A stretch of 64,000 nucleotides of DNA from Escherichia coli. Lineage in GTDB: Bacteria; Pseudomonadota; Gammaproteobacteria; Enterobacterales; Enterobacteriaceae. Below, piece after piece: positions 46,501-49,500 of this stretch. The stretch lies in the NCBI RefSeq assembly GCF_017348835.2, contig NZ_CP071375.1; one strand, written 5' to 3'. A program made the position numbers. Each line of letters begins with the position of its first letter. Within the stretch, counting starts at the first letter, position 1.

Positions 46501-49500
46501 TTTTCTTTTGCGCGCTCGGGCGCGAGATGGGGGCAGCAAGTCTTTCGGTACCACAACAGCAGGTACAGCTTGATGCTCCCGGAATGCTGGCTGAAACGGA
46601 CGAGTACATGGCCGGAGGTAAACGACCGGCCCGTGTTTACCGGGTGGTGAACGGTATTGCGGTACTGCCGGTGACCGGCACGCTGGTGCACCGGCTGGGG
46701 GGGATGCGGCCATTTTCCGGAATGACTGGCTATGACGGCATTGTCGCCTGTCTTCAGCAGGCAATGGCAGATAGCCAGGTGCGGGGCATACTGCTGGACA
46801 TTGACAGTCCGGGCGGGCAGGCCACCGGCGCGTTTGACTGCGCTGACATGATTTACCGCCTCCGTCAGCAGAAGCCGGTCTGGGCACTGTGCAATGACAC
46901 GGCCTGTTCTGCAGCCATGCTGCTGGCGTCGGCCTGCTCCCGACGGCTGGTTACCCAGACATCCCGTATCGGCTCCATTGGCGTGATGATGAGCCATGTC
47001 AGCTATGCCGGTCATCTGGCGCAGGCCGGTGTGGATATCACGCTGATTTACTCAGGGACGCACAAGGTGGATGGCAATCAGTTTGAAGCCTTACCGGCAG
47101 AGGTTCGCCAGGACATGCAGCAGCGCATTGATGCGGCGCGCCGGATGTTTGCCGAAAAAGTGGCGATGTTTACCGGTCTGTCTGTTGATGCCGTCACGGG
47201 AACAGAGGCCGCCGTTTTTGAAGGTCAGTCCGGCATTGATGCCGGGCTGGCGGATGAATTAGTCAATGCGTCGGATGCCATCAGTGTGATGGCCACGGCG
47301 CTGAACAGTAATGTCAGAGGAGGCACTATGCCGCAATTAACTGCAACGGAAGCCGCCGCGCAGGAGAACCAGCGAGTGATGGGGATCCTGACATGCCAGG
47401 AAGCGAAAGGACGTGAACAGCTTGCCACGATGCTGGCAGGACAACAGGGCATGAGCGTTGAACAGGCCCGGGCGATTCTGGCCGCGGCGGCACCGCAGCA
47501 GCCGGTGGCATCCGCGCAGAGTGAAGCCGATCGCATTATGGCGTGTGAAGAAGCGAACGGTCGTGAACAACTGGCGGCAACGCTGGCGGCGATGCCGGAG
47601 ATGACGGTGGAAAAAGCCCGCCCGATCCTGGCTGCTTCACCGCAGGCGGATGCCGGACCCTCACTCCGTGATCAGATCATGGCACTGGATGAGGCAAAAG
47701 GGGCTGAGGCGCAGGCTGAACAGCTGGCTGCCTGCCCGGGAATGACTGTGGAGAGCGCCCGGGCTGTGCTGGCTGCGGGATCAGGTAAGGCAGAACCGGT
47801 CTCTGCATCCACAACCGCCCTGTTTGAACGCATCATGGCGAACCATTCACCGGCTGCGGTACAGGGTGGCGTGCCACAGACGTCAGCAGACGGTGATGCG
47901 GACGTGAAAATGCTCATGGCCATGCCATGAAGTCAGTGCTGACCATCAACAGGAGGTTTTTACAATATGGTAACGAAAAACATCACTGAACAGCGTGCGG
48001 AAGTACGTATTTTTGCCGGTAATGATCCGGCTCATACCGCCACAGGCAGCAGCGGGATTTCCTCGGCAACACCGGCACTGACGCCCCTGATGCTGGATGA
48101 AGCCAGCGGGAAACTGGTGGTCTGGGACGGACAGAAAGCCGGTAGTGCAGTTGGCATACTGGTACTGCCGCTTGAAGGCACAGAGACGGTACTGACCTAT
48201 TACAAGTCGGGGACCTTTGCGACGGAGGCAATCCGCTGGCCTGAAAGTGTGGATGAACACAAAAAGGCAAATGCCTTTGCCGGCAGTGCCCTGAGTCACG
48301 CGGCGTTGCCGTAACACGTTATCAGGCCACCGCGGTGGCCTGACTGATTTCTGAATGAAAGGAACTGATTTATGGGATTGTTTACGACCCGCCAGTTACT
48401 CGGTTATACCGAACAAAAAGTGAAATTTCGTGCGCTGTTTCTGGAGCTGTTTTTCCGCCGTACGGTGAATTTCCATACCGAAGAGGTGATGCTGGACAAA
48501 ATTACCGGAAAAACGCCGGTGGCGGCCTATGTCTCCCCGGTTGTTGAAGGAAAAGTGCTGCGTCATCGTGGTGGTGAAACCCGCGTGTTACGTCCGGGCT
48601 ACGTCAAGCCGAAACACGAATTTAATTACCAGCAGGCGGTTGAGCGCCTTCCTGGTGAAGATCCGGCTCAACTGAACGATCCGGCTTACCGCCGTCTGCG
48701 TATCATTACCGATAACCTCAAACAGGAAGAGCACGCGATTGTCCAGGTGGAAGAAATACAGGCGGTAAATGCTGTGTTGTATGGCAAATATACGATGGAA
48801 GGAGACCAGTTCGAGAAAATTGAGGTCGATTTTGGCAGGTCGACGAAGAATAACATCACTCAGGGTAGTGGTAAGGAGTGGTCAAAACAGGATCGTGACA
48901 CGTTCGATCCTACACATGATCTTGACCTCTACTGCGACCAGGCCAGCGGTCTTGTGAATATTGCCATTATGGACGGTACCGTCTGGCGTCTTCTGAATGG
49001 TTTTAAGCTGTTCCGCGAAAAACTGGATACCCGTCGCGGTTCAAATTCTCAACTCGAAACGGCAGTGAAAGATCTGGGCGCAGTGGTGTCCTTCAAGGGG
49101 TATTACGGCGATCTGGCCATTGTGGTGGCGAAAACGTCTTATATAGCAGAAGACGGTATCGAAAAACGTTATCTGCCGGAGGGCATGCTGGTTCTGGGGA
49201 ATACTGCTGCAGATGGGATCCGTTGTTACGGTGCCATTCAGGATGCGCAGGCGTTGTCCGAAGGTGTGGTGGCCTCTTCCCGTTATCCGAAACACTGGCT
49301 GACGGTGGGGGATCCCGCCCGTGAATTTACCATGACGCAGTCCGCGCCGCTGATGGTGTTGCCGGACCCGGATGAGTTTGTGGTGGTACAGGTGAAATAA
49401 TCCGTGAGCGGGGGCGAAATGCCCCCGTGTCTTTTTTCACAGGGGGCTGATATGGCAACGAAAGAGCAAAATCTGAAACGGCTTGATGAACTGGCCCTGA

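What the first reader, a model, noticed from the sequence alone, without database searches (positions are those of the whole stretch)
47370..47780. Tandem ~40-aa repeats in the C-terminal part of the head protease/scaffold gpC
The C-terminal third of the 501-aa C protein contains three imperfect repeats (I-M/L-x-C/L-x-E-A-K/N-G-R/A-E-Q-L-A...M-T/S-V-E-x-A-R-x-I-L-A-A), which accounts for much of its extra length over lambda C (439 aa as I recall). Repeat-number variation here could alter scaffold or processing behaviour.
Basis: seen in the sequence. Interest (0 to 1): 0.25.

Follow-up and report, generated by a model that had tools for sequence, protein, structure and literature searches.

The report
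Triplicated helical module in phage scaffold
The head protease/scaffold gene of this phage-21-like E. coli prophage carries three old copies of a ~45-residue helical module that phage lambda has once; the repeats are real, but they were already annotated as "Tri boxes" in phage 21 about 30 years ago, so this is not a new finding.

Summary
The 501-aa gpC-type protein (46425-47930, +) has three imperfect repeats at aa 314-358, 367-407 and 415-453. Pairwise scores are 11-16 SD above shuffles. Profiles of single-unit lambda/N15 scaffolds match the protein three times.

The gene is 98.3% identical to phage 21 gene 5. The old GenBank record M81255 already marks "Tri1 box / Tri box / Tri3 box" ("function unknown") inside the nested scaffold gene 6, the Nu3 counterpart. 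That nested gene starts here at ATG 47328, behind a conserved GGAGG.

Two extra units add 96 aa over lambda's single unit. A 36-aa shorter spacer offsets part of this, for a net gain of 62 aa.

The triplication is old. The DNA copies have diverged, and R2 and R3 group by position in phage 21 and Gifsy-1. All three unit cores are conserved while the linkers drift.

Copy number differs between lineages: 1 (lambda, N15, phi80), 3 (phage 21, Gifsy-1, Providencia) and 4 (a rarer E. coli lineage with 138-bp DNA repeats). A few deletion alleles exist, but the number is nearly fixed within the 21-type.

My reading is inferred, not shown: each unit is a small three-helix module strung on flexible linkers, giving a multivalent scaffold/protease-targeting domain.

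Novelty: already known. Interest: low.

The parts
46425..47930 (+). gpC-type head maturation protease/scaffold gene (phage 21 gene 5 homologue), 501 aa, GTG start
   Evidence: ORF. 98.3% nt identity to phage 21 gene 5. 59% aa identity to lambda C.
46860..47303 (+). Peptidase_S49 domain (aa 146-293). Candidate catalytic Ser162 (C-S-A) and Lys214 (H-K-V) are conserved with lambda C.
   Evidence: Pfam PF01343, E=5e-35. Invariant columns S162 and K214. Sequence context checked. The assignment of these residues as the catalytic dyad is from my knowledge of the S49 family, not tested here.
47317..47323 (+). Shine-Dalgarno GAGGAGG for the nested scaffold gene
   Evidence: Sequence. Annotated as a putative RBS in phage 21 records. 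A GGAGG 4-5 nt upstream of the in-frame ATG is conserved in 21, Gifsy-1, STEC309, lambda, N15 and phi80, even where the encoded residues differ.
47328..47930 (+). Nested in-frame scaffold gene (phage 21 gene 6, Nu3 counterpart), 200 aa
   Evidence: Annotation of M81255 and OL657228 transferred at 98.3% identity. Hits to PHROG head scaffolding/capsid assembly families. Expression was not tested.
47364..47498 (+). Repeat unit R1 (aa 314-358). It contains the Tri1 box of phage 21 (window 47395-47498).
   Evidence: Unit HMM, 82 bits. Tri1 box coordinates from M81255. R1 clusters with lambda's single unit.
47523..47645 (+). Repeat unit R2 (aa 367-407). It contains the second Tri box of phage 21 (47535-47645).
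   Evidence: Unit HMM, 71 bits. Coordinates. Groups by position with R2 of the Gifsy-1 group.
47667..47783 (+). Repeat unit R3 (aa 415-453). It overlaps the Tri3 box of phage 21 (47676-47789).
   Evidence: Unit HMM, 65 bits. Coordinates. Groups by position with R3 of the Gifsy-1 group.
47814..47855 (+). Tail helix TALFERIMANHSPA (aa 464-477). It resembles the first helix of a unit (xERIMA), i.e. a partial fourth start; lambda has an equivalent (ALDRLMQGAP).
   Evidence: Predicted helix 160-173 of the 200-aa model. A 15-nt DNA family covers the three D/E-R/Q-I-M-A sites. Alignment. This is a weak resemblance only.
47895..47927 (+). Conserved C-terminal acidic-hydrophobic end DADVKMLMAMP (aa 491-501)
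   Evidence: Aligned with ...LLMSIP / ...LLSMP / lambda ...DLLNTPV ends. Its function is inferred only.

Best explanation
SHOWN. This is the phage-21-type allele of the lambda C/Nu3 head gene pair. It encodes an S49 prohead protease (gp5). A separate scaffold protein (gp6, 200 aa) is very probably also made from the last 200 codons, from an internal SD+ATG at 47328. That shared C-terminal part holds three diverged copies of a ~45-aa module, which lambda, N15 and phi80 carry once. These are the 'Tri boxes' of phage 21. The triplication is old and all three copies are kept under selection.

INFERRED.
- Each unit folds on its own into a small three-helix module: helix (xDRIMAL), turn (EAxG), helix (RExLAxxLA), loop (xPGMT), helix (VExARxILAA).
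- The units are joined by flexible Ala/Pro/Gln/Ser linkers, like beads on a string.
- The module is the conserved interaction core of Nu3-type scaffolds. In lambda, Nu3 contacts Nu3, C, portal B and capsid protein E.
- Because gp5 carries the same modules, the protease co-assembles with the scaffold inside the prohead.
- Three modules make the scaffold trivalent. This replaces lambda's layout of one module behind a ~48-aa disordered spacer.
- The exposed linkers are the likely places where the protease cuts the scaffold into pieces small enough to leave the shell.
For: Identity:
- 98.3% nt identity to phage 21 gene 5, whose record annotates nested gene 6 and the Tri1/Tri/Tri3 boxes.
- S49 domain, E=5e-35.
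- Gene order portal, this gene, decoration, major capsid.

Repeats:
- z = 11-16 against shuffles.
- Three HMM domains.
- Single-unit scaffold PHROGs hit three times.

Nested start:
- GGAGG plus ATG is conserved in 7 of 8 homologues, including STEC309, where the encoded residues change (QEET instead of GGT) but the SD stays.

Age and selection:
- The DNA copies have diverged.
- R1 groups with lambda's unit. R2 and R3 group by position across 21, Gifsy-1 and the closest relatives.
- In 14 homologues of 46-92% identity, mean column identity is 0.73-0.84 in units against 0.30-0.50 in linkers, and the linkers carry indels.

Fold:
- The AlphaFold2 model built with an alignment gives three short helices per unit at pLDDT about 70-83, and low confidence in the linkers.

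Module distribution:
- 1036 representative proteins match at E<=1e-3.
- All sampled full-length hits carry the unit C-terminal to an S49 domain.

Lambda Nu3 partners: Nu3, C, B and E (PMC3224144).
Against: - No experiment or solved structure bears on the unit. Foldseek and sequence searches of the PDB find nothing meaningful.
- From what I recall of the literature (title of Medina et al. 2011, cited), lambda gpNu3 was reported to be intrinsically disordered. That sits uneasily with autonomously folded modules.
- Which partner the unit binds, and whether the linkers are cleavage sites, are guesses.
- In-frame deletion alleles that lose part or all of R2 exist in E. coli genomes, so three intact units may not be strictly required. 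It is unknown whether those prophages are viable.
Confidence: 0.6

Rival explanations
1. The extra units are mainly a spacer. What matters is the length or flexibility of the segment between the protease/N-terminus and the C-terminal capsid-binding tail. The two extra copies simply replace lambda's long disordered linker and have no binding role of their own.
For: Single-unit proteins have a 48-54-aa low-complexity spacer before the unit, whereas multi-unit proteins have only 12-14 aa. Partial or complete R2 deletions survive in natural alleles. The very C-terminal acidic-hydrophobic motif is conserved independently of unit number.
Against: The lengths are not actually equalised: from nested start to C-terminus is 131-137 aa in single-unit proteins, 197-200 aa with three units and about 236 aa with four. 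Core residues of every unit (EA.G.E, LA, PGMT, A...LAA) are conserved in all three positions across 46-92% identical homologues while the true linkers drift. A pure spacer would not keep them.
Confidence: 0.2
2. A hypervariable tandem repeat: copy number changes frequently by slippage or unequal crossing-over and tunes scaffold behaviour between closely related prophages.
For: Copy number differs between lineages (1, 3, 4). The 4-unit lineage has 138-bp DNA repeats at 79-88% identity, consistent with recent expansion or homogenisation. Allele P0020 is an R1/R2 fusion of the kind unequal crossing-over would make.
Against: In the window's lineage the DNA copies share only 12-22-nt patches and TRF detects no repeat of the unit period. 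In the sample of E. coli genomes, 34 of 36 full-length alleles are exactly 1506 bp. The 4-unit type also keeps its length in nearly all listed genomes. No protein with more than 3 matched stretches appeared among the best 150 of 1.84 billion representatives.
Confidence: 0.1
3. The units are helix-hairpin-helix-like nucleic-acid-binding motifs.
For: A weak Pfam HHH match at aa 427-450 (E=0.093, 13 bits against a 24-bit cut-off). RuvA appears among the Foldseek hits (E=7.7).
Against: Both matches are far below significance. The protein is acidic. From established knowledge of lambda assembly, Nu3-type scaffolds are removed before DNA enters the head.
Confidence: 0.03

Closest known systems
Phage 21 gene 5 / nested gene 6 with 'Tri1 box, Tri box, Tri3 box' (GenBank M81255; complete genome OL657228)
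   Same: 98.3% nt identity over the whole 1506-bp gene and the same 501-aa length. The nested start, RBS and three repeat regions map onto the window one to one.
   Different: Only point differences (97% aa identity). The window copy sits in an E. coli prophage that carries virulence-type cargo.
Lambda C (S49 prohead protease) / Nu3 (scaffold)
   Same: Same gene position, S49 domain, conserved internal SD+ATG, one homologous unit and a homologous tail. 59% aa identity.
   Different: Lambda has one unit behind a 48-aa spacer, against three units behind a 12-aa lead. Lambda's record starts Nu3 70 codons further upstream.
Gifsy-1 STM2605 (Salmonella), Providencia alcalifaciens and other Enterobacterales gpC homologues
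   Same: Three units in the same order. Across phage 21, Gifsy-1 and their closest relatives, R2 and R3 are orthologous by position.
   Different: 46-65% identity in the scaffold part, with different linkers and C-terminal extensions. In more distant relatives such as Providencia, R2 and R3 do not separate cleanly by position.
E. coli STEC309-type gpC (538 aa)
   Same: Same family and the same unit.
   Different: Four units that are still repeated at DNA level (period 138 bp, 84% matches). R2-R4 cluster within the protein, pointing to recent expansion or concerted evolution. Found in 106 of 5426 complete E. coli genomes, against 2031 for the 21-type.
P22 gp8 / phi29 gp7 type scaffolding proteins (helix-turn-helix coat-binding domains)
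   Same: A functional analogy only: small helical elements in a largely flexible scaffold that bind the inside of the shell. This comes from general knowledge; papers are listed.
   Different: No sequence or fold match was found. Here the scaffold is fused to and nested in a protease gene, and the helical element is repeated.
Tandem three-helix binding modules (protein A domains, GA albumin-binding modules, Ebh/Embp repeats)
   Different: No sequence relationship (6-17% identity). The scores are generic for small helical bundles and the model is of modest confidence.

Membership tests
Lambda C / phage 21 gp5 type S49 prohead protease with nested scaffold | Peptidase S49 (SppA-like) domain in the N-terminal two thirds | tested here: met
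   PF01343, E=5e-35, 121 bits against a 24.9-bit cut-off, aa 146-293. phrog_53 head maturation protease, E=3e-150.
Lambda C / phage 21 gp5 type S49 prohead protease with nested scaffold | Candidate catalytic Ser/Lys conserved | tested here: met
   S162 (C-S-A) and K214 (H-K-V) are invariant with lambda C and phage 21 gp5. Which residues are catalytic is taken from my knowledge of the S49 family.
Lambda C / phage 21 gp5 type S49 prohead protease with nested scaffold | Position in the head operon: portal, then this gene (overlapping the portal gene's end), then decoration protein, then major capsid protein | tested here: met
   ORFs 44843-46435, 46425-47930, 47967-48314 and 48372-49400. Same order in annotated relatives.
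Lambda C / phage 21 gp5 type S49 prohead protease with nested scaffold | Internal in-frame start with a Shine-Dalgarno that yields a separate scaffold protein identical to the C-terminus | tested here: met
   GAGGAGG, 4 nt, then ATG at 47328. Conserved in 7 of 8 homologues, including one where the amino acids differ. This is sequence-level evidence; actual translation cannot be tested with these tools.
Phage 21 'Tri box' triplication | Three homologous repeat regions inside the nested scaffold gene, at the positions annotated in M81255 | tested here: met
   Tri boxes map to window 47395-47498, 47535-47645 and 47676-47789. They coincide with HMM units ending at 47498, 47645 and 47783.
Helix-hairpin-helix (Pfam PF00633) | Score at or above the Pfam gathering threshold | tested here: not met
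   13.1 bits against a 24-bit cut-off, E=0.093, one stretch only.
DNA-level tandem repeat / hypervariable repeat | Head-to-tail DNA copies of high identity and variable copy number among close relatives | tested here: not met
   TRF finds no repeat of the unit period. Direct repeats are at most 22 nt. Length was 1506 bp in 34 of 36 sampled alleles. The feature is met only in the separate 4-unit lineage.
P22-type scaffolding protein coat-binding helix-turn-helix | Sequence or fold similarity to the solved C-terminal domain | tested here: not met

The most novel reading that the evidence does not exclude
The ~45-aa unit is an autonomous three-helix interaction domain with no Pfam family. It defines Nu3-type scaffolds, and about 1000 clusters at 50% identity carry it. 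Its copy number (1, 3 or 4, evolving by tandem duplication with occasional concerted evolution) sets the valency of scaffold-capsid or scaffold-scaffold contacts. On this reading a 21-type prohead would need proportionally fewer scaffold chains than lambda, and natural R2-deletion alleles would be functional intermediates.
Probability: 0.2. Interest if true: 0.35.

Novelty: already known. Interest (0 to 1): 0.15.

Why it matters
It matters little beyond phage assembly. The triplication has been on record since the phage 21 head operon was sequenced. The gene is one of the commonest prophage genes in E. coli, present in 2031 of 5426 complete genomes. What remains open is what the module does, since the old record says "function unknown". 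The natural series of 1-, 3- and 4-unit scaffolds, plus the deletion alleles, offers a ready-made set for testing how a Nu3-type scaffold and its fused protease contact the shell.

Tried and rejected
- Tandem Repeats Finder and direct-repeat search on the window DNA found no repeat of the unit period. The repeat exists at protein level only.
- The word-indexed protein search returned mostly contig-end fragments of the gene. It helped to find deletion and 4-unit alleles, but not to make a clean census.
- The single-sequence AlphaFold2 model and the alignment-based model both have modest confidence.
- Foldseek against the PDB gave nothing at E<=0.001.
- The HMM search of PDB sequences hit only designed tandem-repeat proteins that share a G-x-S-x-E-Q-A helix-start motif. 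I rejected this as convergence.
- The Pfam HHH match and the RuvA Foldseek hit were rejected as insignificant.
- NCBIfam has no model for the scaffold part.
- I could not read the phage 21 head-gene sequencing paper that I recall (Smith and Feiss 1993) or the lambda gpNu3/gpC biochemistry papers. One broad literature search was uninformative.
- The phage 21 genome announcement confirms that M81255 is an earlier phage 21 fragment but does not discuss the repeats.

Full report
**1. What is there**

The finding lies in ORF 46425-47930 (+), which encodes 501 aa from a GTG start and overlaps the end of the portal gene (44843-46435). It is followed by a decoration-protein gene (47967-48314) and a major capsid gene (48372-49400). 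Pfam places a Peptidase_S49 domain at aa 146-293 (E=5e-35) and nothing significant in the last 200 residues. PHROGs call the N-terminal part "head maturation protease" and the C-terminal part "head scaffolding / capsid assembly protein".

**2. The repeats are real**

- A BLOSUM62 self dot-plot has its six best diagonals at offsets 50, 47 and 97, all inside aa 324-453.
- Pairwise local alignments of the three units score 87-101 against shuffle means of 25-27. This gives z = 11-16, and none of 2000 shuffles came close.
- A profile built from nine units finds three domains at aa 314-358, 367-407 and 415-453 (82, 71 and 65 bits).
- Profiles of the single-unit lambda Nu3 and N15 gp6 families match the protein in three stretches.
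- The period is 47-50 aa, with a 39-45-aa conserved core.
- At DNA level the copies are barely recognisable. TRF finds no repeat of this period, mean column identity of the three aligned DNA copies is 72%, and the longest direct repeats are 12-22 nt.

**3. It is already on record**

The gene is 98.3% identical over its whole length to phage 21 gene 5. GenBank M81255 ("Bacteriophage 21 head gene operon") annotates, inside gene 5:

- a nested in-frame gene 6 with its own putative ribosome-binding site;

Transferred to the window these are 47395-47498, 47535-47645 and 47676-47789. Their ends coincide with my HMM units. The 2022 complete genome of phage 21 (OL657228) annotates the same pair as "capsid protease/scaffolding protein" and "scaffolding protein" (PMC9119081). 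I could not read the paper that I recall as the original description (Smith and Feiss 1993).

**4. The nested scaffold gene**

GAGGAGG (47317-47323) lies 4 nt upstream of ATG 47328, which is Met302. A GGAGG at this spacing before an in-frame ATG is conserved in phage 21, Gifsy-1, lambda, N15, phi80 and the STEC309-type gene. In STEC309 the encoded residues change (QEET instead of GGT) but the Shine-Dalgarno is kept. That argues for selection on the RNA signal. The three units are therefore shared by the protease (gp5) and the 200-aa scaffold (gp6).

**5. Comparison with lambda**

Lambda C is 439 aa and has one unit, at aa 357-400.

| Segment | Window minus lambda (aa) |
|---|---|
| Protease part | -7 |
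| Spacer before the first unit (12 vs 48 aa) | -36 |
| Unit block (140 vs 44 aa) | +96 |
| Tail | +9 |
| Net | +62 |

.

**6. Age and selection**

- Gifsy-1 (56% identical in this part), other Salmonella and E. coli alleles, and Providencia alcalifaciens homologues also have three units.
- In a tree of units, all R1 copies group with the single unit of lambda, N15 and phi80. Across 21, Gifsy-1 and their closest relatives, R2 and R3 group by position. The triplication therefore predates those lineages. The sequences are short, so the tree is only indicative.
- In 14 homologues of 46-92% identity, mean column identity is 0.84, 0.75 and 0.73 in R1, R2 and R3. In the linkers it is 0.30-0.50, and the linkers also carry indels. 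All three copies are maintained.

**7. Copy-number variation**

- One unit: lambda, N15, phi80 and Aeromonas phiARM81ld. Lambda-type sequence occurs in 3227 of 5426 complete E. coli genomes.
- Three units: the 21-type occurs in 2031 of 5426 genomes. Of 36 full-length alleles in an evenly spread sample, 34 are exactly 1506 bp.
- Four units: a separate E. coli lineage (e.g. STEC309, 538 aa). Its units are still DNA repeats (period 138 bp, 84% matches) and its R2-R4 cluster within the protein. It is present in 106 genomes and also has a stable length.
- Rare in-frame deletion alleles of the 21-type:
  - an R1/R2 fusion leaving two units (P0020);
  - loss of R2 (P0021);
  - a 19-aa deletion inside R2 (P0009, P0011, and strain CB7286 at 482 aa).
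- In a scan of 1.84 billion representatives, 1036 proteins match the unit at E<=1e-3. None of the best 150 has more than three stretches.
- All sampled full-length hits carry the unit C-terminal to an S49 domain.

**8. How it probably works (inferred)**

- AlphaFold2 with a 14-sequence alignment gives, for each unit, three short helices at pLDDT about 70-83. The linkers have low confidence and there is no confident packing between units (mean pLDDT 67, pTM 0.28).
- The invariant residues are helix caps and core positions (EA.G.E, LA, PGMT, A...LAA).
- Lambda Nu3 is reported to contact itself, C, portal B and capsid protein E (PMC3224144).
- My best reading is a string of small helical interaction modules. 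They make the scaffold multivalent and, because the protease carries the same modules, bring the protease into the prohead. The flexible linkers would be the likely cutting sites for scaffold removal.
- Which partner each unit binds is unknown. The conserved acidic-hydrophobic C-terminal end (DADVKMLMAMP) is an alternative or additional capsid-binding element.

**9. Rivals**

- A pure spacer role is made unlikely by the conserved unit cores and by the unequal total lengths.
- A hypervariable repeat is not supported in this lineage.
- A helix-hairpin-helix DNA-binding role rests on insignificant matches.

**10. Verdict**

However, it is a known feature of phage 21 and of a very common E. coli prophage gene. 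The added value here is the survey of 1/3/4-unit architectures and deletion alleles, and the comparative support for the nested start. Interest is low.

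Noticed in passing
L003 (lambda NC_001416) 2633 vs about 2843; window 47317-47330: Lambda's record starts Nu3 at C residue 239 (201 aa), and I saw no Shine-Dalgarno close upstream of that ATG. The SD+ATG that is conserved across the family, and used for gene 6 of phage 21 and N15, lies at lambda residue 309 (caggagggcgaATG), which would give a 131-aa product. The lambda annotation and the family-wide signal therefore disagree.
   Followed up: partly
L008 2464-2972 (E. coli STEC309, NZ_CP041435.1): A sister lineage of the gene has four units that are still a DNA-level tandem repeat (period 138 bp, 3.7 copies, 84% matches). R1's end and R2 are identical in protein sequence, suggesting recent expansion or gene conversion. 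It is found in 106 of 5426 complete E. coli genomes.
   Followed up: yes
P0020, P0021, P0009/P0011, P0016, P0004; L009 1001-2449 (strain CB7286): The natural in-frame deletion alleles of the 21-type gene mostly involve R2 or the R1/R2 junction (two-unit or two-and-a-half-unit proteins). P0011 stands for 53 member sequences. It is unknown whether these prophages still make heads.
   Followed up: partly
P0116 (382 aa): One allele has a ~119-aa in-frame deletion joining the end of the protease domain directly to the middle of R2. This is probably a decayed prophage copy.
   Followed up: no
P0195 (258 aa, from a Logan assembly): This is a Gifsy-1-like sequence in which nearly every Ala is Val, Thr is Ile/Met, Pro is Leu/Phe, and His is Tyr. 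That is the pattern expected if every C were read as T. It looks like an assembly of bisulfite-converted or deaminated reads rather than a real protein.
   Followed up: no
P0132 (198 aa, ENA metagenome contig of 897 bp): A free-standing protein with two units but an unrelated N-terminal lead and C-terminal half, and no Pfam domain. It is the only unit-bearing protein seen whose called ORF contains no S49 domain.
   Followed up: no
one search hit list; Most database hits to the scaffold part are 'partial S49 family peptidase' fragments at the ends of short contigs. The gene occurs up to 7 times per E. coli genome, so draft assemblies seem to break in it.
   Followed up: no
L010 (E. coli PE164, NZ_CP114128.1) 15421-19977: The genome with a 100% identical copy of this gene has its neighbouring portal, major capsid and tape-measure genes annotated as frameshifted. 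In the window, the portal (530 aa) and capsid (342 aa) ORFs are intact. The same prophage region there carries sodC, an Ail/Lom family protein gene and, next to it, tccP2.
   Followed up: no
window 47333-47346 and 47567-47580 (- strand): The phage 21 genome record marks two 'CII binding sites' (pattern ttgynnnnnnttgy) inside the scaffold gene on the opposite strand. These are pattern matches only and I did not evaluate them.
   Followed up: no
window 47225-47536 (-), 47672-47923 (-) and others: Several 60-100-aa ORFs overlap the repeat region on the minus strand and in other frames. None was investigated and nothing suggests they are genes. Such ORFs are expected by chance in GC-rich, Ala-rich coding sequence.
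   Followed up: no
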